The notes under the pieces are model-generated. The model worked only from the letters and a program-made list of their open reading frames with translations. It was not told where the DNA came from and ran no database searches. The translations under genes and the position numbers were made by a program. Of a stretch of DNA of 64,000 bases, positions 41,843-64,000 are shown one piece after another. The stretch is from an uncultured Lysobacterales bacterium (GTDB lineage Bacteria > Pseudomonadota > Gammaproteobacteria > Xanthomonadales > SZUA-36): contig CALBDB010000052.1 in NCBI GenBank assembly GCA_937927755.1, forward strand, positions 12,265 to 76,264, given 5' to 3'. The first letter of the stretch is position 1. Every line of letters starts with the position of its first letter.

Positions 41843-41860
41843 GGGATGTGGGTCAAAAGA

Positions 41861-43991: not shown

Positions 43992-44047
43992 GTCATTGTT
44001 CCTATGCTATTTCCTGGATTAAGGTCCAAAATGGGTCACTATGTATA

Positions 44048-44063
44048 TGCAGAAGTCATGCCA
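44048..44063 (-). promoter_or_regulatory. sigma54 (-24/-12) promoter of glnA
   Basis: The minus strand reads TGGCAT-GACTT-CTGCA, with GG and GC at the correct 10-nt spacing. It lies about 57-72 nt upstream of the glnA ATG, and an AGGAA Shine-Dalgarno follows. Confidence 0.6.
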
Positions 44064-44197
44064 AAAGCGTATAAAAATCAGAATTGATCACAGCACACAA
44101 ATTTAAGATTTTAAGTGCGTCTTCACAGCATTTAATGACATTTTAGCAACTTTTGCATCATGTTAAAGAACTCAGCGCAGATTGATGAATTCAGTAA

Positions 44198-44244
44198 TGC
44201 ACCATTATCGCACCAATTAGATTTGTTTGCACTATTTTGGTGCG
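44198..44244. promoter_or_regulatory. NtrC enhancer-like sites upstream of glnA
   Basis: 44228-44244 'TGCACTATTTTGGTGCG' fits the GCAC-N7-GTGC dyad of the NtrC consensus (TGCACCA-N3-TGGTGCA). 44198-44215 'TGCACCATTATCGCACCA' has one good half-site. The sites are about 140-185 nt upstream of the sigma54 promoter. Confidence 0.5.
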
Positions 44245-44252
44245 TTTTTTGG

Positions 44253-48787: not shown

Positions 48788-49091
48788 TCAGCTAGATGCG
48801 AATGATTTGTATCATTATTGTCTAACATCAACTATAACTAGATACATATTAATGCGTAAAACGCGGTTTTAAGGTAAGAAACCATTTAAGAGATTTAACT
48901 AAAAATACAAGCCAATTTCTGATTATTTGTAAGCCTGACAGGGCTTTAGGTAAATCAGTCAATCGGCCTGTCGTTAACTGCGGGGGTAGAAACGACTTGT
49001 CCTTTGTCGGGGAATTAAAACGCCGGTACGTCTTTCGTGCCGGCTTTACATACTCAAATACCATTTCTGTGTGTGTTGCGGGAGGCTTTGA

Positions 49092-51323
49092 ATGAGCTTC
49101 TTCGCCGAACTCAAACGCCGCAATGTTTTCCGCGTGGGTATTGCCTACCTGGTGGGCAGTTGGTTGTTATTGCAACTCACGGATGTACTTTCAGAGTTGC
49201 TTGATCTGCCGGACGTAGTTGGGCGGTCCATTGTTTTGGTGGTTGCGATTGGGTTGCCAGTGGTGTTGTTTTTCGCCTGGGCATTCGAAATGACACCGGA
49301 AGGCGTCAAGCGCGAAAAAAACGTGGATCGCAGCCAATCGATCACGCCCCAGACCGGCAAGAAACTGAACGTAACCATCATGGTGCTGATGGCGCTGGCA
49401 ATTGGATACCTGTTATTCGACAAGTTTTCAGCGCCGACACAACCAGTGCCAGACCACTTTTCTCAACAAGCTTCAGATCAAGCTGCCGAATCCAATGAGG
49501 AAAGTGAGCCTGTCGCCGCCAAAACCGAGTCGGTTATCAGTGAGCAATCCATTGCCGTTTTGCCCTTCAGCAACCGCAGCAACCTGGAGGAGGACGAGTT
49601 TTTCGTCGAGGGCATGCACGATGACCTGCTCACCAACCTGGCCAAGATCGGGTCCTTGAAAGTCATTTCCCGCACCTCGGTGGCACGCTACAAGGATACT
49701 GAAATCCCCATCCCTGAAATTGCCAGGGAACTGGGTGTAGCCACCATCATGGAAGGCGCAGTCCAACGTGCCGGTGGCATGGTGCGTATCAACGTGCAAT
49801 TGATCGACGCGCAAACCGATGAGCACCTGTGGGCGGAAATCTTCGACCGCGAACTGACCACCGAGAACCTGTTTGCAATCCAAACCGAGATCTCAAAAGA
49901 AATCGCTTCGGCACTGAAAACAACCCTTTCTGCAGACGAAATTGAGCGGGTCGATCAACGCCCAACGGATAACCTGGCCGCCTATAGCGCGTACTTGCGT
50001 GGACGGCAATTGATAGCCAGGCGCACCGCTGAAACCGTCGACCAGGCATTGATAGAGTTCGAGCGCGCTGTCGAGTTGGACCCGCAATTTGCACTAGCAT
50101 GGGCAGGCATCGCCGAGGCCGCATGGCTGGCCCTGTGGGTCAGTGATATGAACAGGCCCGAAGCGATTCAACTTTCTCAGGAGGCCGTTGATAAAGCGAT
50201 GGCTATCAACGATCAACTGGGGGAAGTACAGCTGGCCCGGGCAGAAATGCTGCGCCTGACCAGGGGCGATGATGCAGAGAGAGAAGCCGCTTACAAGCTT
50301 GCCATTGAATTGAGCCCGGGACATGCACAAGCGTGGCAACATTACTCGGACTTCGTCAGCGGCTTTTCAGACCGTCTCGACGAGGCGCTTGCACTGGCGA
50401 GGAAAGCTGCCGAACTTGACCCATTGTCAACGGCCATTCAAAACCAGGTCATCGAAATTCTGCGCAACCAGGGTAATTACGAAGAAGCAGAGCAGCGTCT
50501 GTCCCGATTGATTCAACAGGACCCCGGTTTCGCAGGTTCCTACAGACAAATGGCTGACCTCAAATCAAATATGGGCCAATTCGATGAAGCCCTTTATTGG
50601 TTGCACCAGGCACAGTCGCTGGACCCGGGCAACATCCGTTTTGTCATGCGCGAAATATTTCCACAGATGGATATAGGAAACACAGTGGAACTCGATCCAC
50701 TGCTGGCGCGCATGGCAGTCATGGATCCCGACAGTTCAACCCTGAGTTTCATGGAACTAATGATCAACATCTACAAGGGAAACCTGGATGCGGCATTGGA
50801 AGCTGCAAGGCTGTTCGACCAAAAAACGGGCTTTAACCCTAATGGCAAATTTCCTCAGGCGATGGTCCACATGCTGCAGGATGACCAGACGGCGTTCCGC
50901 AATATCGTACAGGAAATCATGCCAGCCTATTACGACAGCGAGACTTTCCAGGAAGGCCTTGAGTGGAGACCATGGATTGGCTGCAACGTGGCCTGGTCCA
51001 TGGTCCAGGCCGGTGATAAGGAAATGGGTTTCGACCTCGCGCGCCAATCCATTGAGCACCTGCGGAACAATTTTCCAGACAGTAACGAAGACCTTTTCAC
51101 GGTGCTCTGCTACATGGTGCTGGACCAGCCTGATCAGGCATTGTTGCAAATTGAAAATGCTGTCGAAAGCGGCAAAGTGAACGGTTGGTGGAGGGAGTTT
51201 CAACATCCTGCATTCCAGTTGCTGCAATACGATCCGCGCTTTGCTGCCGCACAAGCGGCCATCCAGTCGATGATTGCCGCGCAACGCGAGAACCTCCTGC
51301 GACTTGAAAAGGAGAACGGATGA
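49092..51323 (+). CDS. Array paralog 1: 3-TM N-module + TolB-N-like (COG5616-type) domain + TPR-like tail
   Basis: 743 aa. 'MSFFAELKRRNVFRVGIAY', 'FAWAFEMTPEGVKREKNVDRSQSIT', and the most divergent core of the set ('SIAVLPFSNRS...RINVQLIDAQTDEHLWAEIFDR'). GGGAGG Shine-Dalgarno. Confidence 0.8.
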   Translation: MSFFAELKRRNVFRVGIAYLVGSWLLLQLTDVLSELLDLPDVVGRSIVLVVAIGLPVVLFFAWAFEMTPEGVKREKNVDRSQSITPQTGKKLNVTIMVLMALAIGYLLFDKFSAPTQPVPDHFSQQASDQAAESNEESEPVAAKTESVISEQSIAVLPFSNRSNLEEDEFFVEGMHDDLLTNLAKIGSLKVISRTSVARYKDTEIPIPEIARELGVATIMEGAVQRAGGMVRINVQLIDAQTDEHLWAEIFDRELTTENLFAIQTEISKEIASALKTTLSADEIERVDQRPTDNLAAYSAYLRGRQLIARRTAETVDQALIEFERAVELDPQFALAWAGIAEAAWLALWVSDMNRPEAIQLSQEAVDKAMAINDQLGEVQLARAEMLRLTRGDDAEREAAYKLAIELSPGHAQAWQHYSDFVSGFSDRLDEALALARKAAELDPLSTAIQNQVIEILRNQGNYEEAEQRLSRLIQQDPGFAGSYRQMADLKSNMGQFDEALYWLHQAQSLDPGNIRFVMREIFPQMDIGNTVELDPLLARMAVMDPDSSTLSFMELMINIYKGNLDAALEAARLFDQKTGFNPNGKFPQAMVHMLQDDQTAFRNIVQEIMPAYYDSETFQEGLEWRPWIGCNVAWSMVQAGDKEMGFDLARQSIEHLRNNFPDSNEDLFTVLCYMVLDQPDQALLQIENAVESGKVNGWWREFQHPAFQLLQYDPRFAAAQAAIQSMIAAQRENLLRLEKENG

Positions 51324-51348
51324 TGGATCACGGGAAAGGAGGTAAACG

Positions 51349-53229
51349 TTGAGCTTCTTCGCCGAACTCAAGCGCCGCAATGTCTTCCGCGTAGGGATCG
51401 CTTACGCCGTCACTTCATGGCTGCTGATCCAGGTCACCGATATCCTGTTTGAATCCATCGGTACCCCGCCCTGGGTCATGCAAGCCATGTTCGTGGTATT
51501 GGCAGCTGGGTTTGTCATTGCGCTGATCTTTGCCTGGGCTTTTGAGCTGACCCCGGAAGGTGTTAAAAAAGAAAAAGATGTGGACCATGAAGCGTCCATC
51601 GCGCCAAGGACCGCTCAAAAGCTCAATATGGTAATCGGCGTCTTGCTGGTCATTGCCCTGGCATATATTGCCTATGACAAGCTGTTCCTTGAAACCGATG
51701 ATGCATCGGACGTCACCGAAATCAGTTCTTTAGAAAGTGAACCACCAGCAAGCGAAGCCACTTCCGAGCTAACTGAGCCAGAACAAAAACCTGCCGACAC
51801 TCAAAAATCCATCGTTGTCCTGCCCTTCGTGAATATGAGCAATGACCCGGAACAGGAGTTTTTCTCTGACGGGCTATCGGAAGAGCTTTTGAACGTTTTG
51901 GCGCAAATCAAGGATTTGCGGGTCATCTCCCGCACCTCGGCTTTCGCGTTCAAAGGCAAGGATGTCGATATTCCCACTATCGCCGCACAACTCAATGTAA
52001 CCCACGTGCTTGAGGGCAGCGTGCGAAAAGCCGGCGAAGACATACGTATCACCGCCCAGTTGATCGAGGTGAAGACCGATTCTCACCTGTGGTCCGACGC
52101 TTATAACCGCAAGCTGGAAAACGTCTTCGAAATCCAGGAGGAAATCTCAAAGGCCATCGCCGCCGAACTGCAGGTCACGCTGGGAACATCAGGCAAGACC
52201 GGCAGGCCAACGGAAAGCCTGGAAGCCTGGCAGTTATTCCTGCGCGGCAGACACCTTTACCAGAACCGTGGTAAGGCGCAATTGGAGCGGACCATAGAAC
52301 TGCTTAAACAGGCCGTAGACCTCGATCCGGATTTTGACGAGGCATGGGCAAACCTCGCCGCGGCCAATGTGGTTAACGGTTACAGTGAAGAAGAAGGTTA
52401 TTCAGACTTTTATCGCGAAGGAAAGCTTGCTGCTTCACGCGCCATCGAGATCGACCCGGACAATGGTTTTGCCCATGCGGTCCTCGGCCTGGTGCATATG
52501 TCTGAACTCAACTGGGATGAAGCCATGCGGGAACTTGACCTTGCCATCCAGCTAAACCCCAACGAAACAAACTCCCTGCTTTGGAAAGGCATTTCCTTGA
52601 TCGCTCTCGGCTATGTGGACCAGGCCAGCGCCATGTTTAAGCAGGCGGAGCGCCTCGACCCGGCATTTACCAATGTCCACAATTGGCTCGCATCCACTTA
52701 CCGCGTTAAGGGGGATGTTGAAAATATGCGTCGGCATATTAGAAAGCTCCAGCGCCTCGACCCCGACTTTCCCCTGGACAGTTTTATTAACTTCGCACCT
52801 TATTCCGGCGACCTGGATACCGCTGAGGAATTAATGCGCGCAGAGGAAGTTAGAAACCTCGGGTCCGATGTCCTGGCTGTAGCCGCGTTTTCAGCCCTGA
52901 GGGATTCCGGGCGTAAAGAAGAGGCAGTGAAAACCCTGCTGGCAAATGAAAGCCTGGCCAGTGCTAGCGACTTGGCACCCTACCTTTGGAAAATAGGTGC
53001 AATAGGCGAGACCATCGCAAATTTCCAACAGCTTTTCGAACGAGGCCGTGGTCTGCGTGCCACAAATTCCCTGCAAATTTTCTGGGACGACTTTAACCGG
53101 GATCAATTGTCGGACCCGGCGGTTACTGAATTTTTTGAGTCCATCGGCATGGTGGCTTACTGGCGCAAACACGGCGACCCGGATTACTGCCGGGTTGACG
53201 GTGCACACGTCGAGTGCGGTGACCTATGA
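51349..53229 (+). CDS. Array paralog 2
   Basis: 626 aa. The TTG start is supported by an AAGGAGG Shine-Dalgarno and by MSFFAELKRRNVFRV homology. Core 'SIVVLPFVNMSNDPEQEFFSDGLSEELLN...RITAQLIEVKTDSHLWSDAYNR'. C-terminal 'YWRKHGDPDYCRVDGAHVEC'. Confidence 0.8.
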   Translation: MSFFAELKRRNVFRVGIAYAVTSWLLIQVTDILFESIGTPPWVMQAMFVVLAAGFVIALIFAWAFELTPEGVKKEKDVDHEASIAPRTAQKLNMVIGVLLVIALAYIAYDKLFLETDDASDVTEISSLESEPPASEATSELTEPEQKPADTQKSIVVLPFVNMSNDPEQEFFSDGLSEELLNVLAQIKDLRVISRTSAFAFKGKDVDIPTIAAQLNVTHVLEGSVRKAGEDIRITAQLIEVKTDSHLWSDAYNRKLENVFEIQEEISKAIAAELQVTLGTSGKTGRPTESLEAWQLFLRGRHLYQNRGKAQLERTIELLKQAVDLDPDFDEAWANLAAANVVNGYSEEEGYSDFYREGKLAASRAIEIDPDNGFAHAVLGLVHMSELNWDEAMRELDLAIQLNPNETNSLLWKGISLIALGYVDQASAMFKQAERLDPAFTNVHNWLASTYRVKGDVENMRRHIRKLQRLDPDFPLDSFINFAPYSGDLDTAEELMRAEEVRNLGSDVLAVAAFSALRDSGRKEEAVKTLLANESLASASDLAPYLWKIGAIGETIANFQQLFERGRGLRATNSLQIFWDDFNRDQLSDPAVTEFFESIGMVAYWRKHGDPDYCRVDGAHVECGDL

Positions 53230-55040
53230 GTTTCTTTGCTGAACTCAAACGCCGAAACGTCTTCAAGGTGGCTGCGGCCTATATCATCGTCGGCTGGCTT
53301 ATCATGCAGGCCGGCGACACGTTGGCCCCTGCCCTTCATTTACCCGACTGGATCAATTCCGCACTCGCGTTCTTCCTGATCCTTGGCTTTCCCCTTGCAA
53401 TATTTTTTGCATGGGCTTTTGAAATGACCCCTGATGGCCTGAAGAAAGAAAAAGATATTGATCGGAGCCAATCTATCACCAGCGTCACGGGCCAAAAGTT
53501 GAATAATGTGATTATCGGTGTGCTGGTATTGGCATTGGGTTACTTCGTCATCGATAAGTTTGTACTCGATCCAAAGCGTGATGTGGAATTTGCAAGCTCT
53601 GTCCGGTCCACACCGGCGCCGGTTTCGGAGGCTGACAACCCCCAAAAACAATCCATTGCCGTACTTCCGTTCGTCAACATGAGTGATGATGGCGCTAACG
53701 AATACTTCTCAGACGGACTCTCGGAAGAGTTGCTGAATTTGCTCGCCAAGATTCCTGAGCTCAAGGTAGCGGCCCGGACATCTTCTTTCCAGTTCAAAGG
53801 TCAAACCGGTGATATCGACACCATTGCCAGGAAATTGAAAGTTGCAAATATTCTCGAAGGTAGCGTGCGCAAGTCCGGCAACCAGGTGAGGATTACCGCG
53901 CAACTGATCAAGGCGGATGACGGATATCACCTGTGGTCTGAAACCTACGACCGTACACTCGAAAACATCTTCCAGGTGCAGGATGAAATCGCAGTGGCGG
54001 TAGTAGACGCCCTGAAGATTACATTGCTGGGAGAGGCGCCGGTTACAACTGAAGTCAATCCTGATGCTTACGCACTGTTTCTCCAGGGCAGATACTACTT
54101 TACGCAAAATAGCGATGGGCCGAGTTCCCGCAAAGCAGTTGATGCATATAAAAAAGCGCTTGAGATCGACCCGGATTACGCGGCCGCGTGGGCCGGGCTT
54201 GCGCTAGCCACCGCCTGGCGGGCCGGATTTGGACACATTGAATATGAGCCCGGCGTAGCAAGTGCACTTGCTGCTGCCGAAAAGGCTGTCGAACTGGATC
54301 CGGACCTGGCCCTCGCCTGGGTCAGCTTGTCAAACACCCAGGGAAGCTACCTGTGGCAATGGCAGGCCAGTTACGAATCAGCTCAAAAGGCAATTGAACT
54401 GGATCCCGCCAATAGCACAGCGCTCTCACAAGCAGCGCAGATAACACGGGACCTGGGCGAGTTTGAACAAAGCCTGGCTATGTATCAGAAGGCGGTAGAG
54501 CTTGATCCGCTAAATCTCGAGGCCATTAGCCAACTGGCTCGGGCTTATGACAGCGTAGGCAGGCATGAGGAAGCGGAACAGCAATATCTGAACCTGATGA
54601 ATCTGATCCCCGATCGCGAGGGGGTACACAGTCAATATGCATACACACTGCTTCTGATGGGCCGCTTCCAGGATGCGCTTGCAGTAGCGGAAAAGGAACA
54701 GGACGCCATTTGGAGATCACTTCTCACGGTTTTCGCATTGTATAGTCTGGATAGAATTGAGGAATCAGACGCCGAACTGCAAGCATTCATCGAAAATCAC
54801 CAGGATTTCTGGGCATACCAGATTGCCGAGGTCTATGCATGGCGCAATGACGCAGATGCAGCTTTCAAGTGGCTTGAGTCCGCCTTTAGTTACCGTGACC
54901 CGGGTCTCAGTAATCTCTTGAGCGATCTTACCCTGTCAAACCTGCACCACGATGTGCGCTGGGAGCCATTTCTGGCCAAAGTCGGCTTGCTCGAACCCTG
55001 GCAAGCCTTGCCCGACAAATACAAGGGACCCAGGCAATGA
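53226..55040 (+). CDS. Array paralog 3
   Basis: 604 aa. ATGA overlap with paralog 2. 'MSFFAELKRRNVFKV', 'FAWAFEMTPDGLKKEKDIDRSQSIT', core 'SIAVLPFVNMSDDGANEYFSDGLSEELLN...RITAQLIKADDGYHLWSETYDR'. Confidence 0.8.
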   Translation: MSFFAELKRRNVFKVAAAYIIVGWLIMQAGDTLAPALHLPDWINSALAFFLILGFPLAIFFAWAFEMTPDGLKKEKDIDRSQSITSVTGQKLNNVIIGVLVLALGYFVIDKFVLDPKRDVEFASSVRSTPAPVSEADNPQKQSIAVLPFVNMSDDGANEYFSDGLSEELLNLLAKIPELKVAARTSSFQFKGQTGDIDTIARKLKVANILEGSVRKSGNQVRITAQLIKADDGYHLWSETYDRTLENIFQVQDEIAVAVVDALKITLLGEAPVTTEVNPDAYALFLQGRYYFTQNSDGPSSRKAVDAYKKALEIDPDYAAAWAGLALATAWRAGFGHIEYEPGVASALAAAEKAVELDPDLALAWVSLSNTQGSYLWQWQASYESAQKAIELDPANSTALSQAAQITRDLGEFEQSLAMYQKAVELDPLNLEAISQLARAYDSVGRHEEAEQQYLNLMNLIPDREGVHSQYAYTLLLMGRFQDALAVAEKEQDAIWRSLLTVFALYSLDRIEESDAELQAFIENHQDFWAYQIAEVYAWRNDADAAFKWLESAFSYRDPGLSNLLSDLTLSNLHHDVRWEPFLAKVGLLEPWQALPDKYKGPRQ

Positions 55041-56890: not shown

Positions 56891-59085
56891 GCTTTTTCGC
56901 CGAACTCAAACGACGAAACGTATTCCGGGCAGGTATCGCCTACTTGATAGGTGCCTGGTTATTGGCTCAAATCGCCGACCTTCTGATCGACAATATCGGC
57001 GCACCGGATTGGGTTATGAAAACCCTGTTTGTTGTACTGGGACTGGGTTTCTTCCTGACCCTGTTTTTTGCCTGGGCGTTCGAGATGACACCGGAAGGCG
57101 TTAAACGGGAATCCCAGGTAGACCGCAGCCAGTCGATAACCAAGGTTACCGGCCACAAACTGGACCGGACAATTATCCTGATCCTGGTACTGGCGTTGGC
57201 ATACTTTGCCTGGGACAAATTTGCGGCACCTGCCCCAACTGCGATTCCAGAAACAGCGTCAACAACCGAGCAGGCCATGATCGATAAATCTATCGCCGTG
57301 TTGCCTTTCGTCAATATGAGCGCCGATGCGGATAATGAATATTTTTCAGACGGCCTGTCAGAAGAGTTGCTCAACCTGCTGGCCAAGGTGGATGGCCTGA
57401 AGGTTGCCGCCCGCACATCCTCTTTCAAATTCAAGGGCTCTGAAGCTGATATCGCTGAAATCGGCCAGAAACTGAATGTCGCCACTGTCCTTGAAGGCTC
57501 GGTACGCAAATCCGGCAACCAGGCCCGCATCACGGCACAGTTGATCAAGGTCGATGACGGGTTTCACCTATGGTCGGAGACCTATGATCGTGAACTGGAT
57601 AACATATTTGAGGTACAGGATGAGATAGCCACGGCCATCGTAGACGCCCTCAAGTTACCGCTACTGGGTCACGATGCAAAACCCGTTACCAGCACATCGG
57701 CAAACAACTTTGCCTCCTATGACCTGTACCTTCAGGGCAGGCACGAGGCGCGGCAGTATTCAGAACAAAGCTTTAAACGAGCCATCGAATACTACCTTGC
57801 ATCTCTTGAAAATGATTCATCCTTTGCACCAGCTTACAGCGGTCTTGCGGACGCCTATATGTACTTATCCGATTTTGGAGACCTGCCACAGGGCGAAGCC
57901 CAGAAACTTGCACGAAGCGCGACCGAAAAAGCACTTTCTATCAACCCTGATTCACCGGAAGCCCATGCTTCCATGGGGCTTTTGTTAAACAACCTGGGCC
58001 ATATACGCGAGTCCGACATACACTTGCAGAGAGCACTGCAGATCAACCCCAATTATGTCAATGCATTGATTTGGTACCGCAACAACCTGAATTCCCAATT
58101 CAGAAGCACCAAGGCCATGAGCGTGATCAAAAAGGCCTTGAGTGTTGATCCATTGTCACACTCTGTTCGCAGAGCCTACGCCAGCCAGTTGTATGTCCTT
58201 CTGAAGTTTGATGAGTCAGTCCAGAAAATCCAGGCACTGATTGCGGCCAACCCGGACGACCCAACGCCTTACGAGCTTTGGGGAAACATTTTCATGGAGA
58301 AAGGTCTTCCGCAAAACGCAATACCCATGTATCGCAATTCACACCGCTTAAGGCCTGGTGATATTTACATGGCGGCACAAAACGTGAACGCTGGTTTACA
58401 GTTAAACGATCCGGAACTGGTTGAATATTGGCTGGAAGAGGCGAGAAGCCGTGGCGCTGATGGCCAATGGACACGATCTGCGGAAAATGCCGTGATGTAT
58501 GCGAATGGCAAATTTGCCGAACTGCTTAGCCAGGTTGATCACTTGCTCGAGTCGCAACCGGGGCAAATGGGATTACTGAGGTATCGCCGTGACGCCTTGG
58601 TGAATATGGGTCAGATTGAAGCTGCAAAAGATACCGTGCAACAAGCCCTGGAATCCAGCGGTCATGTGAGCGGCCAATCCATCTCAGGTGATCAGCTATT
58701 TAATGTTGTTTCCCTCGCAAACGTAATGGACATTACCGGCGATACTGTCGCCCGTGACCAGTTAGTCTCGCAATCATCAAGCCTGCTAAATCATCTTCGC
58801 CAATCAGAACCGGCCAACAGTACTGTGCTTCTTCTCAGTGCAATGGTGGCATCCATTCAAAATGACCTGCCAGGTGTGCTGAGCAATCTCGAACTGGCCG
58901 TGCAGAATGGCTTTACAGATCACTGGGAACTGATCAGGAGCCCTGTATTCGCACGCTGGCAAGACAATGAAGAATTCCAGGCTTTTTATCAAAGCATGTT
59001 AAAAACCGCAGCCGATAATTTGCGTGAATACAAAACCAACAATCCCAAAGAAAAAGCCACAACGGCGAGGGAGGTTTTCGGCTGA
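56887..59085 (+). CDS. Array paralog 5
   Basis: Start set to the second ATG (56887), which gives MSFFAELKRRNVFRA and an ATGA overlap with paralog 4. Core 'SIAVLPFVNMSADADNEYFSDGLSEELLN...RITAQLIKVDDGFHLWSETYDR'. 732 aa. Confidence 0.8.
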   Translation: MSFFAELKRRNVFRAGIAYLIGAWLLAQIADLLIDNIGAPDWVMKTLFVVLGLGFFLTLFFAWAFEMTPEGVKRESQVDRSQSITKVTGHKLDRTIILILVLALAYFAWDKFAAPAPTAIPETASTTEQAMIDKSIAVLPFVNMSADADNEYFSDGLSEELLNLLAKVDGLKVAARTSSFKFKGSEADIAEIGQKLNVATVLEGSVRKSGNQARITAQLIKVDDGFHLWSETYDRELDNIFEVQDEIATAIVDALKLPLLGHDAKPVTSTSANNFASYDLYLQGRHEARQYSEQSFKRAIEYYLASLENDSSFAPAYSGLADAYMYLSDFGDLPQGEAQKLARSATEKALSINPDSPEAHASMGLLLNNLGHIRESDIHLQRALQINPNYVNALIWYRNNLNSQFRSTKAMSVIKKALSVDPLSHSVRRAYASQLYVLLKFDESVQKIQALIAANPDDPTPYELWGNIFMEKGLPQNAIPMYRNSHRLRPGDIYMAAQNVNAGLQLNDPELVEYWLEEARSRGADGQWTRSAENAVMYANGKFAELLSQVDHLLESQPGQMGLLRYRRDALVNMGQIEAAKDTVQQALESSGHVSGQSISGDQLFNVVSLANVMDITGDTVARDQLVSQSSSLLNHLRQSEPANSTVLLLSAMVASIQNDLPGVLSNLELAVQNGFTDHWELIRSPVFARWQDNEEFQAFYQSMLKTAADNLREYKTNNPKEKATTAREVFG

Positions 59086-61340
59086 TGTCATTTTTTGCTG
59101 AACTCAAACGCCGCAACGTGATCCGCGTGGGTGTCGCCTACGTGGTGGTCGCCTGGTTGATCATGCAATTCGCCGACGTGGTGCTGAACAACATCGAGGC
59201 GCCCGATTGGGTGTTCCAGGCCATCATGTTGGTGCTGGCCATCGGGCTGCCGCTGGTGCTGATCTTTGCCTGGGCTTTCGAGATGACACCCGACGGCGTC
59301 AAGCGTGAAAAAGACGTCGACCGCACGCAGTCTATCACGCAAACCACCGGTCGTAAGCTGGACCGGGCGATCATTGGCATCATGGCGGTGGTTATCGCTT
59401 TCCTGGTCCTTGACCGCTTTGTGCTGACCGAAGAAAACGCTTCAGTGGCCGAAGGTGCCGGGCAAGAATCTGTTGTGGCTGAAGAAGAAGCGGCTCCAGC
59501 AGCGGAAACCAATCCATCAGTTGCAGTACTGCCGTTCATCAACATGAGCGGCGACGTCAACAACGAGTACTTCTCGGACGGGTTGACCGAAACCTTGCTG
59601 CACATGTTGGCGCAGTTGCCGGATCTTCACGTTGCCGCACGAACATCCTCCTTTGCTTTCAAGGGCAAGAACCCGAGCATCAATGAAGTTGCCGCAGCGC
59701 TCGGTGTAGCCCATATTCTTGAAGGAAGTGTGCAGAAATCGGGTAACCGCGTGCGTATTACCGCCCAGTTGATACGTGCAAATGATGGCTTCCATGTATG
59801 GTCTCAAAATTACGATCGCACGCTGGACGATATATTTACCATCCAGGATGAAATCGCGAATGACGTGGCCTCTGCACTCGATGCGTCACTGTTTGGAAAG
59901 TCCAAACCAGACCTTCATGGGGTAAGCACAACTAACCTGCAGGCCTATGACAGCTACCTGAAAGGGCTGGAACAACAGGCCCTGTTTTCCTATGGCAGCC
60001 TTGCAATTGCTGAAAACCACTTCAAGGCTGCACTGGCCTTCGACCCGCAATTTATCGATGCCCGGATAGCATTGATTCGCAACCATTTACTCAAGTCAGG
60101 CACGGGAGTTATTACCGTGGAAGAGATACCGGACCTGGTCGAGCCACTTATCCAGCAGGTCAATGAACAGGACCCCAATAATCGACTGGCGCGCGCATAT
60201 GAATTGTGTGCGTATATTTTTGCCTCCCGGTACAGCGCAAACAGGGATGAAATGGAAAATGCCGTCAATGAGTTACAAGAATTGTTGGCCCTGATGCCTA
60301 CTGAAACCTACGTCAGAACCAGTATGACCTACCCGATAGCTTACTTTTTTGAGCAACCCCAACAAGCGATTGATCTGCTCGAGGCTGGTCTGCTGATTGA
60401 TCCGCTTTCTTCCGATCTGTACTTACAGCAAGCCCGGATTTATCGCGATGAAAGACGTCTTGACGAGGCACGGGAAGCAGCAGAAAAGGCCCGGCAGTTG
60501 TCTCCGGGAAATCCAAACACGTACGGCCAGCTGGGCTATATTGCAGCAGACAGCAATGATCTGCCGGCTTCATTGCTCTGGTTTCGCCAGGCAATGGAAG
60601 TTGATCCGCAGGATCACGAATTTGCAGCAAATATCGCCACCACTTTTTATCAGTTGAACCTGCCCGAGGAAGGTGACCGTTGGTACGCACGTGTAAAAGC
60701 CCTGGCGCCAGGTTCTGCCGTGGCACGGTTGCTTGAGCTTGATCGCGCCGTTGCCAGACACGAGCAAGAGCAAATTCTCGCGCTGGCCAAGAGCATGATT
60801 ATCGACCAGGTAGACATGCGCCACGGCGCTTTTGATTTTGCAAATGTCGAATATGCAGACCTTATGCTCGAAGCCGGTCGCGCTCGTGAAGGCTATGAAT
60901 TCCTGCTGTCCGTAAGGCCAGATATCAGCAACTACGAAGTCATGCCGGCTGACCCACAGGGCGAGGTTATGCAACGCTATAGCATCCTGCTAATGACAGG
61001 CTTCGATACGTTTGAAGCCCGCCTGGCAACCTGGAATGCATTCACAGCAAACTGGGACAAAAAGGGCTACCCCTGGCGGAACCCGAGATTCTGGGATTTC
61101 ACCTGGGACAGGATCATCAACGGCGATATCGAGACAGCCACTGAAAACTTCCTGCAATACCAACTGACCTTGCCCGTAGCTACGACTTTGTGGCGAAGGG
61201 AAGATCACCTCCGTCCATTTTTCGAGGAAATGATGTCCGACCCCAGGGTCGTAGCCGGCATGGTCGAGTTCAACAAGGAGTACGACCGAATCCGGAAAGA
61301 TGTACAGGAAATGCTGCAGGAACCGGAGTGGAACCAGTGA
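59085..61340 (+). CDS. Array paralog 6
   Basis: 751 aa. TGATG 1-nt overlap with paralog 5. 'MSFFAELKRRNVIRV', core 'SVAVLPFINMSGDVNNEYFSDGLTETLLH...RITAQLIRANDGFHVWSQNYDR'. Confidence 0.8.
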   Translation: MSFFAELKRRNVIRVGVAYVVVAWLIMQFADVVLNNIEAPDWVFQAIMLVLAIGLPLVLIFAWAFEMTPDGVKREKDVDRTQSITQTTGRKLDRAIIGIMAVVIAFLVLDRFVLTEENASVAEGAGQESVVAEEEAAPAAETNPSVAVLPFINMSGDVNNEYFSDGLTETLLHMLAQLPDLHVAARTSSFAFKGKNPSINEVAAALGVAHILEGSVQKSGNRVRITAQLIRANDGFHVWSQNYDRTLDDIFTIQDEIANDVASALDASLFGKSKPDLHGVSTTNLQAYDSYLKGLEQQALFSYGSLAIAENHFKAALAFDPQFIDARIALIRNHLLKSGTGVITVEEIPDLVEPLIQQVNEQDPNNRLARAYELCAYIFASRYSANRDEMENAVNELQELLALMPTETYVRTSMTYPIAYFFEQPQQAIDLLEAGLLIDPLSSDLYLQQARIYRDERRLDEAREAAEKARQLSPGNPNTYGQLGYIAADSNDLPASLLWFRQAMEVDPQDHEFAANIATTFYQLNLPEEGDRWYARVKALAPGSAVARLLELDRAVARHEQEQILALAKSMIIDQVDMRHGAFDFANVEYADLMLEAGRAREGYEFLLSVRPDISNYEVMPADPQGEVMQRYSILLMTGFDTFEARLATWNAFTANWDKKGYPWRNPRFWDFTWDRIINGDIETATENFLQYQLTLPVATTLWRREDHLRPFFEEMMSDPRVVAGMVEFNKEYDRIRKDVQEMLQEPEWNQ

Positions 61341-61367
61341 ATTACCTAACCGGATTAATAGCTCGTC

Positions 61368-61397
61368 ACCCCGGACTTGATCCGGGGTCCGTTTTTT
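61368..61397 (+). terminator. Rho-independent terminator after paralog 6
   Basis: Stem ACCCCGGA / TCCGGGGT with a 5-nt loop, followed by CCGTTTTTT. Confidence 0.6.
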
Positions 61398-61429
61398 ACC
61401 CCATTTTTGCATCAATGACAAAAAAATGG

Positions 61430-61449
61430 ATTCCGGCTTTCACCGGAAT
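61430..61449. repeat. Second intergenic hairpin (ATTCCGG-N6-CCGGAAT), REP-like
   Basis: Perfect 7-bp stem preceded by an A7 run. This is the kind of palindrome that yields spurious '...WIPAFTGMT...' ORFs. Confidence 0.4.
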
Positions 61450-61467
61450 GACGAAAACTAGAGAAAG

Positions 61468-64000
61468 ATGAGCTTTTTTAAAGAATTAAAACGCCGCAAT
61501 GTAGTTCGTGTCGGCATCGCTTACACGGTGGCCACGTGGCTGCTGATACAGGTAACTGATACAGTTTTCCCCCGCATCGGTTTACCTGATTCAGCAGTCA
61601 CGCTGGTCATCGCTTTATTGGCTATCGGCTTTATTCCCGCGCTGATCTTTGCCTGGGCTTTCGAGATGACCCCAGATGGCATCAAACGGGAAAAAGACGT
61701 TGACCGCACGCAGTCTATCACGCCGGAAACCGGTAAAAACCTCAACCGCTTGATCATTGCAGGGCTGGTACTGGTCATTATTGTTATGGGTGTCGAGCGG
61801 GCCTGGTTTGCAGGGAACGACGAAGTTGAAGAAAGGCAAACTAAAGCAGTGAGCAGCGCCGTTGCCGAACCCGCAAAATCAATTGCGGTACTGCCTTTTG
61901 CCGACATGAGCCAGGGCGGCGACCAGGCATGGTTTGCTGATGGGCTGGCAGAAGAGATTCTGAATGCCCTGGTGCGGGCGCCCGATTTGCTGGTATCTTC
62001 CCGGACATCATCTTTCGCCTACAAGGACACCAGTACTCCCGTTGCTCAAATCGCGGACGAACTGGGCGTCGAACATGTGCTGGAAGGCTCTGTGAGACGC
62101 GCCGGTGACCGCATCCGCGTAACGGCCCAATTGATCAGGGCCAGCGACGGATTTCATGTTTGGTCTGAAAATTATGACCGCAATGCCGATGATGTCATCG
62201 CCATCCAGGAAGAGTTGGCTATCAGTATCGCCAAAGCCCTGAAAACTACGATGGACCCCGACAGACTGGCGGAAATGTTGCGCGCAGGGACCCGTTCTGT
62301 GGCGGCTTACGAGCACTATCTGAATGGGCTTAGTATCGCCAATGAAGCGTCTGTCAATTCGGAGTTCGAAAGATTGCTGGGAGCCTACAACGAGTTTGAA
62401 CGTGCGCGTGAGATTGACCCGCAATTTTCTGCGGCACATGGAAAAGCGGCAGGATTTTGGCGTGGGCAGCTGTCAATTTCCCAGCGCGGCGCAAATCTGA
62501 CTGATCTTTCACCGGCGGAAATCCAGACTTTGTTCCTGGTAAGAATCAACCTGGCAATCGAATCCGCCGACAATGACATCGACCGCAAACGCCACAAAAT
62601 CATGAAGGCATTGGTTGATCTTCGTGTGAGGGAAGGCATAAGGCTTGCCCGTGAGGCTCTCAATGCCAACCCATATGATAGTGATGTATTGACTGAGCTC
62701 GTTGATCTTGCCGTCTGGGCAAAGGACACGGAAGCAGAGAACTTTGCACTTGACCACGCATATTCGCTTTGGGAACACGGAGCACAATGGGCTAACGCAT
62801 ACATAACGACAGCCTGGCGCGTTACCCAACCCCGCCCACTGGCGGAATTTGTCTCCAAGGTACTTGCACGTTATCCCGGCAACAAGGGCTTGATTTACCA
62901 GGCGCACCGCGGCTTGTTATGGCAGGGTGAGTTCGAAATGGCCAGGAAACTGGTGAGTGACCTTAAAAACGAAAACCCCCGGTCTCTCTCCATCGTTCAA
63001 ACAAGGCAGGCCTGCGCTGATGGTCGAAGGTCGGAGGCTGAGCGCATACTTCGCAGCGTGGTTCCAACCTTGTCAAAAGGAGATCAAGCATCTTCGAAAT
63101 GGCACATGCTGCAAGCATTGAGCCGCCACGAAGAAGCCCATGAACAACTCAGGCCCTGGGCCAGTGCCGAGGTCCCCCTGCCCGTAGCCGCCTACATGAT
63201 TTACCCGGATTTTGATCCATCTTATTTTCCGTTCGTGCAAGAGATCATACGCCGTGAAGGGATTAAACGACCGCCGCCCAGGGAGATCCCATTTGCCTGC
63301 CCGGAGCAGGATGTCATTGAACAGGAGTCCGTGGCCGTTTTGCCATTTAAGGCCATGAGCAGTGGTGAAGACGATGGTTACTTTGCCGATGGCCTGACCG
63401 AGGAGATTCTGAATTCGCTGGCCAGGCTGCCGGAACTGTTGGTCACCGCCCGCACCTCTTCCTTCCACTTCAAGGGCAAGAACCTTCCTATTCCCGAGAT
63501 TGCGGCAACCCTCGGGGTTAACCATGTAGTAGAAGGTTCGGTGCGCCGCTCCGGTGAACGGGTCCGCATTACTGCCCAGTTGATACGCGCTGAAGACGGC
63601 TTCCACCTGTGGTCAGATACCTATGACCGCACCCTGGAAGACGTATTTTCGGTCCAGGAGAATATCGCCGAAAACATTGCTGAAACCCTGGATGTCGTTC
63701 TGAACGAAGACAAGCGGCAGCAAATGCGCGATGCACGTATCGATGACGTCGAGGCATTTATTGCCTACCAAAAAGGAATGGAAATGTCATCGCGGGCGCA
63801 CTCCATCAGTGACCCGATCGAATTACTTCCAGAGGCTAATGTCTATTTCGACCAGGTATTGGCAATAAACCCGGAAATCACCAATGCCCAATTGGAGCGA
63901 ACAGACCTATTTGGTCACATTATCTACAACAACGCCATAGGCCGTAGCACCTCTACACAGGCTGAACTTGAAGCCGCATTAGAAGAAATTTTAGCCGGTC
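61468..64000 (+). CDS. Array paralog 7 (partial, runs off window): N-module + core + TPR-like region + second core domain
   Basis: Hand translation from ATG 61468 gives 844 codons with no in-frame stop up to 64000, so the ORF is absent from the supplied track. 'MSFFKELKRRNVVRVGIAY', 'FAWAFEMTPDGIKREKDVDRTQSIT', core 1 'SIAVLPFADMSQGGDQAWFADGLAEEILN', and core 2 from 63328 'SVAVLPFKAMSSGEDDGYFADGLTEEILN...RITAQLIRAEDGFHLWSDTYDR'. Confidence 0.75.
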   Translation, partial: MSFFKELKRRNVVRVGIAYTVATWLLIQVTDTVFPRIGLPDSAVTLVIALLAIGFIPALIFAWAFEMTPDGIKREKDVDRTQSITPETGKNLNRLIIAGLVLVIIVMGVERAWFAGNDEVEERQTKAVSSAVAEPAKSIAVLPFADMSQGGDQAWFADGLAEEILNALVRAPDLLVSSRTSSFAYKDTSTPVAQIADELGVEHVLEGSVRRAGDRIRVTAQLIRASDGFHVWSENYDRNADDVIAIQEELAISIAKALKTTMDPDRLAEMLRAGTRSVAAYEHYLNGLSIANEASVNSEFERLLGAYNEFERAREIDPQFSAAHGKAAGFWRGQLSISQRGANLTDLSPAEIQTLFLVRINLAIESADNDIDRKRHKIMKALVDLRVREGIRLAREALNANPYDSDVLTELVDLAVWAKDTEAENFALDHAYSLWEHGAQWANAYITTAWRVTQPRPLAEFVSKVLARYPGNKGLIYQAHRGLLWQGEFEMARKLVSDLKNENPRSLSIVQTRQACADGRRSEAERILRSVVPTLSKGDQASSKWHMLQALSRHEEAHEQLRPWASAEVPLPVAAYMIYPDFDPSYFPFVQEIIRREGIKRPPPREIPFACPEQDVIEQESVAVLPFKAMSSGEDDGYFADGLTEEILNSLARLPELLVTARTSSFHFKGKNLPIPEIAATLGVNHVVEGSVRRSGERVRITAQLIRAEDGFHLWSDTYDRTLEDVFSVQENIAENIAETLDVVLNEDKRQQMRDARIDDVEAFIAYQKGMEMSSRAHSISDPIELLPEANVYFDQVLAINPEITNAQLERTDLFGHIIYNNAIGRSTSTQAELEAALEEILAG

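What the first reader, a model, noticed from the sequence alone, without database searches (positions are those of the whole stretch)
49092..64000. Tandem array of at least seven paralogous '3-TM module / TolB-N-like domain / TPR tail' genes, a candidate undescribed envelope system
Genes starting at 49092, 51349, 53226, 55037, 56887, 59085 and 61468 share three alignable blocks. Block 1 is the N-terminus MSFF[AKS]ELKRRNV[FIV][RK][VA]. Block 2 is FAWAFE[ML]TP[DE]G[VLI]K[RK]E..[VI]D[RH]..SI. Block 3 is a ~125-aa core with S[IV][AV]VLPF...S...[YF]F.DG[LI].EE[LI][LI]N.L......L.V..RTS.F.[FY]K, then [VI][LM]EG[SA][VI][RQ]..G...R[IV][TN][AV]QLI...D..H[LV]W[SA]..[YF][DN]R, then Q[DE][EN]I. After these the proteins diverge into helical, TPR-like tails of very different length (604-751 aa totals). 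P2 and P4 end in a similar Cys-pair motif ('YW...PD.C...G..[VI]EC'). From memory, the core plus TPR part resembles the periplasmic half of COG5616-type signalling proteins (adenylate cyclase, wHTH or kinase, then TM, then TolB-N-like, then TPR). Here the cytoplasmic output domain is replaced by a tiny, extremely conserved membrane module, so the output or partner is unknown. No enzyme, regulator, transporter or mobile gene interrupts 15 kb of paralogs, and the array may continue beyond the window. The conserved anchor with diversified tails suggests a multi-specificity or hetero-oligomeric envelope sensor or scaffold.
Basis: partly seen in the sequence, partly recalled or inferred. Interest (0 to 1): 0.8.

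Follow-up and report, generated by a model that had tools for sequence, protein, structure and literature searches.

The report
Tandem array of membrane-anchored TPR paralogs
An uncultured marine gammaproteobacterium carries 15 neighbouring copies of an uncharacterised inner-membrane protein: an almost invariant three-helix membrane module followed by a TolB-like domain and a copy-specific TPR tail, from a very large family whose membrane module is in no domain library I searched and whose function is unknown.

Summary
The seven genes are real, co-oriented and mostly overlap by 4 bp. On the source contig the array runs to 15 full-length paralogs plus one truncated copy, about 31.7 kb.

Each protein has four parts:
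- a 112-aa N-module with three TM helices, N-terminus inside;
- an acidic linker;
- a TolB-N/PelC/LpoB-fold domain;
- a TPR solenoid.

The last two together resemble the CadC periplasmic sensor. Charge distribution and cysteine parity place them in the periplasm.

The N-module matches nothing in Pfam, NCBIfam or PDB, yet occurs in about 18,800 protein clusters at 50% identity. They come mainly from Woeseiaceae/Lysobacterales-like MAGs, where tandem arrays are common. Its invariant residues lie on the cytoplasmic face. Tails differ between paralogs (22% identity) but are kept between orthologues (48%).

No output domain, enzyme or conserved partner gene was found, and no literature. Source annotations call these proteins 'TolB-like protein', 'TPR protein' or, wrongly, 'adenylate cyclase'.

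Best reading: a battery of periplasmic binding receptors or adaptors with distinct specificities, sharing one membrane and cytoplasmic interface. That mechanism is inferred. I rate it a new variant of a known, uncharacterised kind (COG5616-type TolB-N plus TPR proteins), of moderate interest.

The parts
48997..49095 (+). 32-codon TTG ORF that overlaps the P1 ATG by ATGA. It contains a relic of an N-module start, LSFVGELKRRYVFRAGFTY, at 49012-49053.
   Evidence: The translation resembles MSFFAELKRRNVFRVGIAY. Direct-repeat family D6 is 64-76% identical to the 5' ends of six of the paralogs (all but P3).
49092..51323 (+). P1, 743 aa. N-module 49092-49427; acidic linker; TolB-N-like core aa 151-274 (49542-49913); TPR tail to the end.
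   Evidence: Members of the P1-like subtype (about 745 aa) recur in other genomes.
51349..53229 (+). P2, 626 aa, TTG start. N-module 51349-51684; core aa 151-272 (51799-52164); TPR tail ending in a Cys pair.
53226..55040 (+). P3, 604 aa; its start overlaps P2 by 4 bp. N-module 53226-53561; core aa 141-262 (53646-54011); TPR tail aa 279-594.
   Evidence: AF2 model with pLDDT 86.8. More than 100 full-length orthologue-like clusters at 52-78% identity.
55037..56890 (+). P4, 617 aa; 4-bp overlap with P3. N-module 55037-55372; core aa 142-262 (55460-55822); TPR tail ending in a Cys pair.
56887..59085 (+). P5, 732 aa; 4-bp overlap with P4 (an alternative ATG lies at 56881). N-module 56887-57222; core aa 133-254 (57283-57648); TPR tail.
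   Evidence: Best partial HilA/EilA hit, E = 1.8e-17.
59085..61340 (+). P6, 751 aa; 1-bp overlap with P5. N-module 59085-59420; core aa 143-264 (59511-59876); long TPR tail.
   Evidence: The P6-like subtype is multiplied in other genomes.
61368..61397 (+). Intrinsic-terminator-like hairpin followed by a T-run in the 127-nt gap between P6 and P7.
   Evidence: It heads the site list (8 pairs, 6 of them G-C, then TTTTTT). I infer that P1-P6 form one operon and that P7 starts a new unit.
61468..64000 (+). P7, cut by the window end (1099 aa in full). N-module 61468-61803; core 1 aa 136-257 (61873-62238); helical tail 1; core 2 aa 619-739 (63322-63684); tail 2 continues beyond the window.
   Evidence: Core 1 matches FlgO PF17680 at 28.3 bits, above the 22.6 cut-off. 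A double-core form of about 1092 aa is conserved in L023 and L042.

Best explanation
**What it is (shown).** The region is the first seven genes of a 15-gene, roughly 31.7-kb tandem array. The genes encode paralogous inner-membrane proteins. Each has:
- a 112-aa N-module, made of a cytoplasmic amphipathic N-terminus (ELKRRNV), a TM1-TM2 hairpin, a near-invariant cytoplasmic loop (AWAFE.TPEG.K.E.DVDRSQSIT..TG.KL) and TM3;
- an acidic, disordered periplasmic linker of about 30 aa;
- a TolB-N/PelC/LpoB-fold alpha/beta domain;
- a TPR solenoid of about 340-840 aa.

The last two together resemble the periplasmic sensor domain of CadC. There is no catalytic, DNA-binding or other output domain.

**How it most likely works (inferred; I put it at about 0.35-0.45).** Each paralog is a periplasmic binding receptor or adaptor. 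Its TPR tail gives a distinct, evolutionarily stable specificity for a protein, peptide or polymer ligand. The shared N-module holds all of them in the inner membrane. Its invariant cytoplasmic face couples them to one common partner or to each other by homo- or hetero-oligomerisation. The array would then be a multi-specificity receptor or adaptor battery.

The ligands, the partner and the output are not known.
For: **Architecture and topology**
- AF2 models have pLDDT 86.8 and 83.8. Helices span 12-37, 42-67 and 87-113; residues 117-137 are disordered; the alpha/beta core spans 139-268; TPR helices span 279-594.
- Positive-inside counts in 527 N-modules: K+R 4.0 (N-terminus), 0.4 (loop 1) and 6.1 (loop 2). 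The linker after TM3 is 5% K+R and 17% D+E.
- In 355 proteins with three TM helices, cysteines in core plus tail are few and mostly paired: 0:181, 1:48, 2:72, 3:9, 4:38, 6:7. This is the pattern expected of exported proteins.

**Fold**
- Foldseek matches the core to the TolB N-domain (rmsd 3-4 A over about 135 residues), PelC, LpoB, FlgT, GNA1162 and CsgG.
- Core plus helices match the CadC periplasmic domain, 3LY7/8/9, at E = 4e-7 to 2e-6 over about 305 columns.
- Partial NCBIfam hits to CadC, HilA/EilA and TIGR04510. TPR Pfam models score above their cut-offs.

**The N-module is a functional unit**
- In 527 distinct sequences, E6, L7, R9, R10, N11, V12, Y19, W24, Q28, P40, G54, W63, E66, T68, P69, G71, S83 and T88 are at least 98% conserved. 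They concentrate in the cytoplasmic N-terminus and loop.
- That loop is predicted with low confidence (pLDDT 50-70). This fits a partner- or oligomer-dependent interface.
- DNA identity between paralog N-modules is only 62-78%. The conservation is therefore selection on the protein, not gene conversion.
- The same hairpin and motif are kept in a subfamily with two TM helices, where core plus TPR must be cytoplasmic.

**Specificity pattern**
- Among the 15 paralogs, identity is 57.5% for the N-module, 55.3% for the core and 21.9% for the tail.
- P3 tails are 48% identical to those of 61 orthologue-like hits, against 23% to its own paralogs.
- Recognisable subtypes recur across genomes, with lineage-specific duplications.

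**Scale**
- About 18,798 clusters at 50% identity carry the N-module.
- In 80 genome loci, 164 of 190 complete ORFs have this exact architecture, and arrays of 7-15 genes are common.
Against: - No ligand, partner or output has been identified.
- No gene is conserved next to family members outside close relatives. Neighbours include an M14-like peptidase, an M1 peptidase, DUF885, a sortilin/BNR protein, an ABC-F ATPase and isocitrate lyase.
- The cytoplasmic surface is only about 45 residues, which is small for a signalling output.
- Every well-understood protein with the TolB-N-like fold (TolB, LpoB, PelC, CsgG, FlgT) is a structural or adaptor envelope component, not a signal transducer. That favours the scaffold rival.
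- Oligomerisation could not be modelled here.
- There are no expression data.
Confidence: 0.42

Rival explanations
1. Structural envelope scaffold or tether. The proteins signal nothing. Their TolB-N/PelC-like domains and TPR arms organise or brace periplasmic machinery, peptidoglycan enzymes or exopolymer export, as CpoB/LpoB, TolB or PelB/PelC do. The N-module serves only as an oligomerising anchor.
For: - All top structural matches of the core are envelope adaptors or ring-forming lipoproteins: PelC dodecamer, CsgG, FlgT, LpoB, TolB.
- Periplasmic TPR proteins are typically scaffolds. Weak NCBIfam hits go to PilW, PgaA, BcsC, PrsT and NlpI.
- There is no output domain.
- P7 carries two core-TPR units on a single anchor.
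Against: - A plain anchor does not need about 20 invariant residues on its cytoplasmic face across thousands of clusters.
- The same hairpin also tethers a cytoplasmic version of core plus TPR.
- No export, peptidoglycan-synthesis or Tol-Pal genes are linked.
Confidence: 0.3
2. Membrane-anchored periplasmic chaperones or substrate-capture adaptors, with a CcmI-like logic of membrane module plus periplasmic TPR that holds client termini. They would serve secreted proteins or peptides, perhaps tied to the protein-degrading lifestyle of the host.
For: - Tails give weak hits to TPR_CcmH_CycH, PF23914.
- Several neighbours are secreted peptidase-like proteins: an M14-like gene directly upstream and syntenic in five relatives, plus M1 and DUF885.
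- Many stable subtypes would fit many clients.
Against: - The TPR_CcmH_CycH hits are all below the cut-off of 42 bits; the best is 29.3.
- Linkage to peptidases is neither universal nor specific.
- Nothing links the family to any maturation machinery.
Confidence: 0.15
3. The source annotation is right and these are adenylate cyclases. Alternatively, they are ToxR/CadC-type one-component regulators.
For: JGI and NCBI name many members 'adenylate cyclase'. There are partial hits to TIGR04510, CadC and HilA.
Against: - No cyclase domain and no wHTH appears in any of the proteins scanned.
- The NCBIfam hits cover only the C-terminal core-plus-TPR part and fall far below the cut-offs: 66.8 bits against 400, 62.9 against 589, 37.3 against 400.
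- Only about 45 residues are cytoplasmic.
Confidence: 0.01
4. Non-functional or artefactual repeats: decaying duplicates, an assembly artefact, or 5' ends homogenised by gene conversion.
For: - A relic fragment lies upstream of P1, and the array contains a 135-aa truncated copy.
- Split genes are seen in some long-read contigs.
Against: - All 15 ORFs are intact. The six in-window ORFs are called with the same lengths on three metagenome contigs from three samples (two JGI, one ENA), and the array beyond the window on ENA contigs from two samples.
- Each subtype has conserved full-length orthologues.
- Paralog DNA identity is 62-78%, with changes that leave the protein conserved.
Confidence: 0.02

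Closest known systems
COG5616-type 'TolB-like' plus TPR modules fused to cyclase, wHTH/HTH or kinase domains (for example TIGR04510 mod_pep_cyc, HilA/EilA)
   Same: They share a homologous alpha/beta core followed by TPR-like helices. Partial profile hits reach E = 1.5e-18 and 1.8e-17. JGI names the proteins 'TolB-like protein'. An HTH-core-TPR relative with no TM helix was seen at L051 478-2319.
   Different: Here there is no cyclase, wHTH or kinase. The N-terminus is instead a three-TM module with no match in Pfam or NCBIfam. The genes are massively amplified in tandem. The function of the shared module is itself unknown in most of these proteins.
CadC (ToxR-like transmembrane one-component regulator), periplasmic sensor domain, PDB 3LY7
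   Same: Both have a two-subdomain periplasmic unit, alpha/beta followed by a helical bundle, anchored in the inner membrane. Foldseek gives E = 4e-7 to 2e-6 over about 305 columns. NF007540 gives a partial hit at E = 1.5e-9. CadC senses pH through its dimeric periplasmic domain (PMC5430869).
   Different: CadC has an OmpR-type DNA-binding domain and a single TM helix. These proteins have three TM helices, about 45 cytoplasmic residues and a much longer TPR solenoid. Sequence identity is about 14%.
TolB N-terminal domain, PelC, LpoB, FlgT/FlgO, GNA1162 and CsgG fold group
   Same: The core has the same alpha/beta fold (E about 1e-6, TM-score normalised to the single-domain targets 0.56-0.63). 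All are envelope proteins. FlgO PF17680 scores above its cut-off for P7.
   Different: Those proteins are soluble or lipoprotein components of defined machines: Tol-Pal, Pel export, PBP1B activation, the flagellar H/T ring and curli. Here there is no beta-propeller, no lipobox and no linked machine genes, and the domain is fused to an inner-membrane module and TPRs.
CcmI/CycH-type proteins (membrane module plus periplasmic TPR chaperone). This comparison rests on my own knowledge.
   Same: The design is shared: a small N-terminal membrane module with a cytoplasmic loop, followed by a large periplasmic TPR domain. Tails give weak PF23914 hits.
   Different: There is no significant sequence relationship, the TolB-N-like domain is extra, and no cytochrome-maturation genes are linked.

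Membership tests
TolB-N-like fold group (Pfam TolB_N PF04052 / FlgO PF17680 / LpoB / PelC; COG5616) | Alpha/beta fold of the TolB N-terminal domain | tested here: met
   Foldseek of the AF2 model matches the TolB N-domain (1crz, 2hqs, 3iax; rmsd 3-4 A over about 135 residues), PelC, LpoB and GNA1162 at E = 5e-7 to 1e-5.
TolB-N-like fold group (Pfam TolB_N PF04052 / FlgO PF17680 / LpoB / PelC; COG5616) | Sequence match above the curated Pfam cut-off | tested here: inconclusive
   FlgO scores 28.3 bits for P7, above the 22.6 cut-off, but 12.9-21.6 bits for P2-P6. TolB_N scores 14.9 bits for P1, below its 22.4 cut-off.
TolB (Tol-Pal system protein) | C-terminal six-bladed beta-propeller and a linked tol-pal operon | tested here: not met
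   No propeller domain. TIGR02800 matches only profile positions 16-149, at 23.6 bits against a 343-bit cut-off. No tol or pal genes are nearby.
TPR-repeat proteins | Several TPR motifs scoring above Pfam cut-offs and a helical solenoid | tested here: met
   TPR_1, 2, 8, 11, 14, 17 and 19 score above their cut-offs in P1-P6. AF2 gives about 20 helices across 279-594. Foldseek matches consensus TPR and OGT TPR structures at E = 1e-10 to 1e-8.
ToxR-like / CadC one-component regulators | Cytoplasmic OmpR-type winged-helix DNA-binding domain | tested here: not met
   No Trans_reg_C or wHTH hit in any paralog. Only about 45 residues are cytoplasmic.
ToxR-like / CadC one-component regulators | Single TM helix | tested here: not met
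   Three predicted TM helices.
ToxR-like / CadC one-component regulators | CadC-type periplasmic sensor domain (alpha/beta subdomain plus helical subdomain) | tested here: met
   Foldseek matches 3LY7/3LY8/3LY9 at E = 4e-7 to 2e-6 over about 305 columns. NF007540 gives partial hits.
Class III adenylate cyclases (the name given by JGI and NCBI to many members) | Cyclase catalytic domain (Guanylate_cyc) | tested here: not met
   No such Pfam or NCBIfam hit in the seven paralogs or in the relatives checked. TIGR04510 aligns only to profile positions 309-615, at 66.8 bits against a 400-bit cut-off.
HilA/EilA regulators (NF009037) | Full-length match above the cut-off, including the N-terminal wHTH | tested here: not met
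   The best score is 62.9 bits against a 589-bit cut-off. It covers profile positions 119-427 only.
PelC / LpoB / CsgG-type outer-membrane lipoproteins | Lipoprotein signal peptide with a lipobox cysteine | tested here: not met
   The N-terminus is MSFF.ELKRRNV followed by a TM hairpin. There is no lipobox, and cysteine is absent from the N-module consensus.
Anti-phage defence systems (PADLOC) | Match to any defence-protein model | tested here: not met
   No relevant hit. The only hit is a spurious TPR-region match to PrimPol at E = 4e-4.
Tat signal anchor (the N-terminal KRRNVFR fits Z-R-R-x-hydrophobic-hydrophobic) | Twin-arginine motif directly preceding the exported passenger | tested here: inconclusive
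   The RR is invariant, but only a loop of 4-8 residues follows TM1. The passenger domain comes after TM3. In one variant with two TM helices the RR is broken (LKNRKV). I consider this reading unlikely.

The most novel reading that the evidence does not exclude
The N-module would be a new, widespread membrane coupling module. Its invariant cytoplasmic face would link dozens of diversified periplasmic TolB-N/TPR receptors per genome to one shared cytoplasmic partner, so that many inputs converge on one output, much as chemoreceptors do.

That partner could be the conserved two-TM paralog, which carries the same hairpin but places its core plus TPR in the cytoplasm. In three of the genome loci fetched (L036, L045, L062) that paralog lies within about 7 kb of a three-TM member. 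TM3 would act as an evolutionary topology switch.

If so, the arrays are a previously unrecognised class of envelope receptor battery in abundant marine-sediment bacteria.
Probability: 0.15. Interest if true: 0.8.

Novelty: new variant of a known kind. Interest (0 to 1): 0.5.

Why it matters
- **Scale of the unknown.** About 18,800 protein clusters at 50% identity share an N-terminal membrane module. It has roughly 20 near-invariant residues, no match in Pfam or NCBIfam, no solved relative and no literature that I could find.
- **Cost to the host.** The MAGs carrying it are labelled mostly Lysobacterales/Xanthomonadales, Woeseiaceae, Chromatiales or simply Gammaproteobacteria. Some devote tens of genes to it. 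One MAG shows at least 22 copies across the three contigs fetched, and 15 copies occupy one 31.7-kb array here.
- **Annotation errors.** Many members are named 'adenylate cyclase' although they have no cyclase domain. That name can inflate counts of cAMP-signalling genes in metagenome surveys.
- **Value of a function.** Knowing what the family does would annotate thousands of genes. If the receptor-battery reading holds, it would also show how these bacteria sense or organise their envelope.
- **A built-in experiment.** The forms with two and three TM helices place the same domains on opposite sides of the membrane. This offers a natural test of what the N-module does.

Tried and rejected
- **Domain libraries.** Pfam and NCBIfam scans found nothing for the N-module at E up to 0.1 in the seven paralogs. 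The apparent N-terminal extensions in relatives are ORF over-calls with no domains.
- **Solved structures by sequence.** A profile search of PDB with N-module plus core gave no hit at E up to 1.
- **Solved structures by fold.** Foldseek gave no match for the N-module among the 50 best hits listed. All of those are to the core.
- **Defence systems.** PADLOC gave nothing relevant.
- **Literature.** Searches for COG5616; TolB-like plus TPR plus adenylate cyclase; TolB_N plus TPR; Woeseia plus tetratricopeptide; Woeseiaceae plus TolB; and the motif strings ELKRRNV and variants found nothing relevant.
- **Conserved neighbours.** Only synteny in close relatives was found, in the order glnA, uppP, GSDH, M14-like gene, array. 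Neighbours of single copies and of the two-TM form are heterogeneous.
- **Stand-alone N-module proteins as a class.** Most short hits are contig-end fragments. On the one long contig I inspected the genes are split into fragments, which I read as frameshifts. The 135-aa ORF in this array is the only well-supported case.
- **N-module fused to other domains.** The few cases are rare and look like chimeric or partial gene calls: a DcuC fragment, PKD/Ig domains, and an unknown beta-rich domain.
- **Gene conversion.** Rejected as the cause of 5' conservation, because paralog DNA identity is 62-78%.
- **Tat signal.** Considered and judged unlikely.
- **Small ORFs.** The 33-aa and 32-aa ORFs called after P7 and P15 show no resemblance to the family.


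Full report
**1. Observation**

The + strand from 49092 to the window end holds six complete ORFs and a seventh that is cut off:
- P1 49092-51323, 743 aa
- P2 51349-53229, 626 aa, TTG start
- P3 53226-55040, 604 aa
- P4 55037-56890, 617 aa
- P5 56887-59085, 732 aa
- P6 59085-61340, 751 aa
- P7 from 61468

P2/P3, P3/P4 and P4/P5 overlap by ATGA, and P5/P6 overlap by one base. The 127-nt gap between P6 and P7 holds the terminator-like hairpin that heads the site list for the region (61368-61388 plus a T-run).

The Cys-pair ending shared by P2 and P4 is also there.

**2. The array is larger than the window**

Metagenome contigs that encode identical proteins are held as L001, L002 and L003. L002 comes from a 242-kb ENA contig. 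They show P7 as a 1099-aa protein followed by paralogs of 634, 692 and 627 aa. Next comes a 135-aa ORF that is an N-module alone, then paralogs of 625, 609, 615, 618 and 614 aa.

HMMs built from the window's N-module and core hit every one of them at E = 1e-49 to 1e-60. After P15 the sequence is unrelated.

The array therefore holds 15 full-length genes plus one truncated copy, about 31.7 kb, equivalent to window positions 49092 to about 80826.

P7 has one N-module but two core domains (aa 136-257 and 619-739). I read it as two units fused on one anchor. The same form of about 1092 aa recurs in other genomes.

**3. Anatomy**

AF2 on P3, using 67 homologues, gave pLDDT 86.8. A second model of residues 1-275 gave 83.8. 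The elements are:
- a short N-terminal helix, residues 3-9;
- three long hydrophobic helices, 12-37, 42-67 and 87-113;
- a loop between helices 2 and 3, modelled with low confidence (pLDDT 50-70);
- a disordered stretch, 117-137;
- an alpha/beta domain, 139-268;
- about 20 TPR-type helices, 279-594.

Charge distribution in 527 distinct N-modules gives the topology. K+R averages 4.0 in the N-terminus, 0.4 in loop 1 and 6.1 in loop 2. The linker after helix 3 is acidic (5% K+R, 17% D+E) and rich in A, E, P, S and T. So the N-terminus and loop 2 are inside, and the linker, core and TPR are in the periplasm.

Cysteine counts agree. In 355 proteins with three TM helices, core plus tail holds 0, 2 or 4 cysteines far more often than 1 or 3 (0:181, 1:48, 2:72, 3:9, 4:38, 6:7). 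This is the parity bias expected of exported proteins, an interpretation that rests on my own knowledge.

**4. Fold and homology of the periplasmic part**

Sequence profiles give:
- TPR families above their cut-offs;
- FlgO (PF17680) above its cut-off only for P7, at 28.3 bits against 22.6;
- TolB_N below its cut-off.

NCBIfam gives only partial, sub-threshold hits to the C-terminal parts of three families:
- TIGR04510, a peptide-modification-system cyclase, E = 1.5e-18;
- HilA/EilA, E = 1.8e-17;
- CadC, E = 1.5e-9.

Foldseek on the 1-275 model returns only matches to the core. They are GNA1162, FlgT, PelC, the TolB N-domain (rmsd 3-4 A over about 135 residues), LpoB, CadC and CsgG.

Foldseek on the full model returns TPR proteins and the CadC periplasmic sensor domain (3LY7/8/9, about 305 aligned columns, E = 4e-7 to 2e-6).

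Core plus TPR is the same module that elsewhere follows cyclase, wHTH or HTH domains. An HTH-core-TPR relative with no TM helix turned up by chance at L051 478-2319. JGI's automated name for these proteins is 'TolB-like protein'.

**5. The N-module**

It matches nothing in Pfam or NCBIfam, nothing in PDB by sequence profile and nothing among the 50 listed Foldseek hits.

It is nevertheless very common. A profile search of 1.84 billion representative proteins found 18,798 clusters at E <= 1e-3, 12,051 at <= 1e-10 and 2,138 at <= 1e-30.

In 527 distinct sequences these residues are at least 98% conserved: E6, L7, R9, R10, N11, V12, Y19, W24, Q28, P40, G54, W63, E66, T68, P69, G71, S83 and T88. 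Most lie in the cytoplasmic N-terminus and in the loop after helix 2.

Among the 15 paralogs, residues 1-14 are 86% identical and the loop 63%. DNA identity between paralog N-modules is only 62-78%. The conservation is therefore selection on the protein, not gene conversion.

**6. Distribution and evolution**

A scan of GTDB species genomes found at least 572 loci. The best 80 are all from MAGs. Most are labelled Lysobacterales/Xanthomonadales, Woeseiaceae, Chromatiales or 'Gammaproteobacteria'. A few are labelled Rhodothermales, Gemmatimonadota, Chthoniobacterales or Sphingomonadales.

In those loci, 164 of 190 complete family ORFs have the N-module, core and long-tail architecture. Arrays of 7-15 genes are common (L006 plus L068, L011 plus L023, L056, L042, L049, L028), and single copies are common too.

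Eight relatives share one or more of the window's upstream genes (glnA, uppP, a GSDH-like gene, an M14-like gene) next to their arrays. The locus is therefore ancestral in this clade.

Subtypes are recognisable across genomes and carry lineage-specific duplications and reshuffling. They include P1-like (about 745 aa), P6-like (about 750 aa), P3-like (about 605 aa), P12-like, P13-like and the double-core P7-like form.

P3 has more than 100 full-length orthologue-like clusters at 52-78% identity. Its tail is 48% identical to those, but 23% identical to its own paralogs. Across the 15 paralogs, identity is 57.5% for the N-module, 55.3% for the core, 22.9% for the linker and 21.9% for the tail.

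This is an old birth-and-death family with stable, subtype-specific tails. It is neither a hypervariable system nor decaying duplicates.

**7. A topological variant**

A well-conserved subfamily of about 518 aa keeps the N-terminal motif, TM1, TM2 and the AW.F[DE]..P.G motif but lacks TM3. It comprises at least 120 clusters at 64-92% identity. The core follows after at most about 19 hydrophilic residues.

With two TM helices, core plus TPR must lie on the same side as the N-terminus, which is the cytoplasm. Its cysteine content fits: 2-8 per protein with no parity bias, 74 odd against 46 even.

I infer that the conserved unit is the hairpin with its cytoplasmic face, and that TM3 acts as an optional topology switch. 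This argues that the N-module does more than anchor. In three of the genome loci fetched (L036, L045, L062), a two-TM member lies within about 7 kb of a three-TM member. Otherwise its contexts are housekeeping and uninformative.

**8. What it most likely does**

Shown:
- architecture, topology and fold;
- operon-like packing;
- family size and divergence pattern;
- absence of any enzymatic or DNA-binding domain;
- absence of conserved partner genes and of defence-system matches.

Inferred: each paralog is a periplasmic binding receptor or adaptor whose TPR tail sets its specificity. The shared N-module couples them, through its invariant cytoplasmic face, to a common partner or to each other.

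I give this about 0.4. The main rival, at about 0.3, is a purely structural envelope scaffold. It is favoured by the fact that every understood protein with this core fold (TolB, LpoB, PelC, CsgG, FlgT) is an adaptor or ring component. A CcmI-like chaperone or client-capture role gets about 0.15.

The 'adenylate cyclase' name used by several sources is wrong, because there is no cyclase domain.

**9. Comparison, novelty and verdict**

CadC signals through dimerisation of its periplasmic and TM regions (PMC5430869).

The proteins fail the defining tests for ToxR-like regulators (no wHTH, three TM helices), for TolB (no propeller), for lipoproteins of the PelC/LpoB type (no lipobox) and for cyclases.

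Three things are new relative to described systems:
- the N-module that no library I searched models;
- the large tandem amplification;
- the dimorphism between forms with two and three TM helices.

No paper describing any of this was found in six searches.

I classify it as a new variant of a known kind. Interest is moderate at 0.5. It is a very large 'known unknown' with clear experimental handles, but no mechanism is established and no long-standing question is resolved.

Noticed in passing
window 48997-49095 (relic at 49012-49053): A 32-codon TTG ORF ends in ATGA on the P1 start codon. It encodes LSFVGELKRRYVFRAGFTY..., a degenerate copy of the N-module start. It may be the remnant of a lost upstream paralog or a leader peptide.
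   Followed up: partly
L002 21644-22051 (window-equivalent about 70728-71135): A 135-aa ORF consists of an N-module alone and sits between the 10th and 11th paralogs. It keeps nearly all the invariant residues and the same protein is on record on 8 contigs, but no core follows it. It could be a truncated paralog or a functional mini-protein.
   Followed up: partly
L036 17156-18739; L045 6725-8299; L062 13554-15113 (-); L021 13441-15186 (-): A subfamily with two TM helices (about 518 aa, at least 120 clusters) lacks TM3, so core plus TPR should be cytoplasmic. Its proteins hold 2-8 cysteines with no parity bias, unlike the form with three TM helices.
   Followed up: yes
window 61468-64000 and L002 12384-15683: P7 carries two core-plus-TPR units on one N-module (1099 aa). 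The same double form is conserved in L023 (1092 aa) and L042.
   Followed up: partly
window 46214-48787 (+): An 857-aa protein with an M14 carboxypeptidase domain lies directly upstream of the array and in the same orientation. It is syntenic in L004, L005, L006, L010 and L022 at 53-71% identity. Whether it is functionally linked is unknown.
   Followed up: partly
window 39457-45041: The upstream context is housekeeping: an NtrC-like response regulator and a histidine kinase, glnA, and uppP, followed by a GSDH-like gene at 45038-46135. The array therefore sits in a core chromosomal region, not on an island. GC is 51-54% across the array, against 51-59% elsewhere in the window.
   Followed up: partly
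L051 478-2319 (-): A 613-aa relative has what I read by eye as an N-terminal HTH-like segment (not scanned against any library), no TM helix, then the same core plus TPR. It shows the periplasmic module reused as a cytoplasmic regulator module.
   Followed up: no
P0335, P0317, P0313 (representative-library hits): A few N-modules are followed by other sequence: PKD plus Ig-like domains, an unknown beta-rich region of about 170 aa, or a DcuC fragment. These may be chimeric or partial gene calls, or they may be genuine alternative architectures.
   Followed up: partly
L086 (ENA ERZ25039600 contig_38178, 420 kb): On this contig the family genes are split into fragments of 140-640 aa, which I read as frameshift errors. 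This probably accounts for many of the apparent stand-alone N-module proteins in the databases.
   Followed up: partly
database names of P0026, P0052, P0122, P0201, P0210 and others: Many family members are named 'adenylate cyclase' or 'adenylyl cyclase' by JGI or NCBI. No member scanned here has a cyclase domain, so this looks like a propagated misannotation.
   Followed up: yes
L001 and L003 compared with L002 and the window, P6-P7 intergenic region: The gap between P6 and P7 is 42 nt longer in two of the metagenome contigs (169 nt against 127 nt). The region carrying the terminator-like hairpin therefore varies between populations.
   Followed up: no
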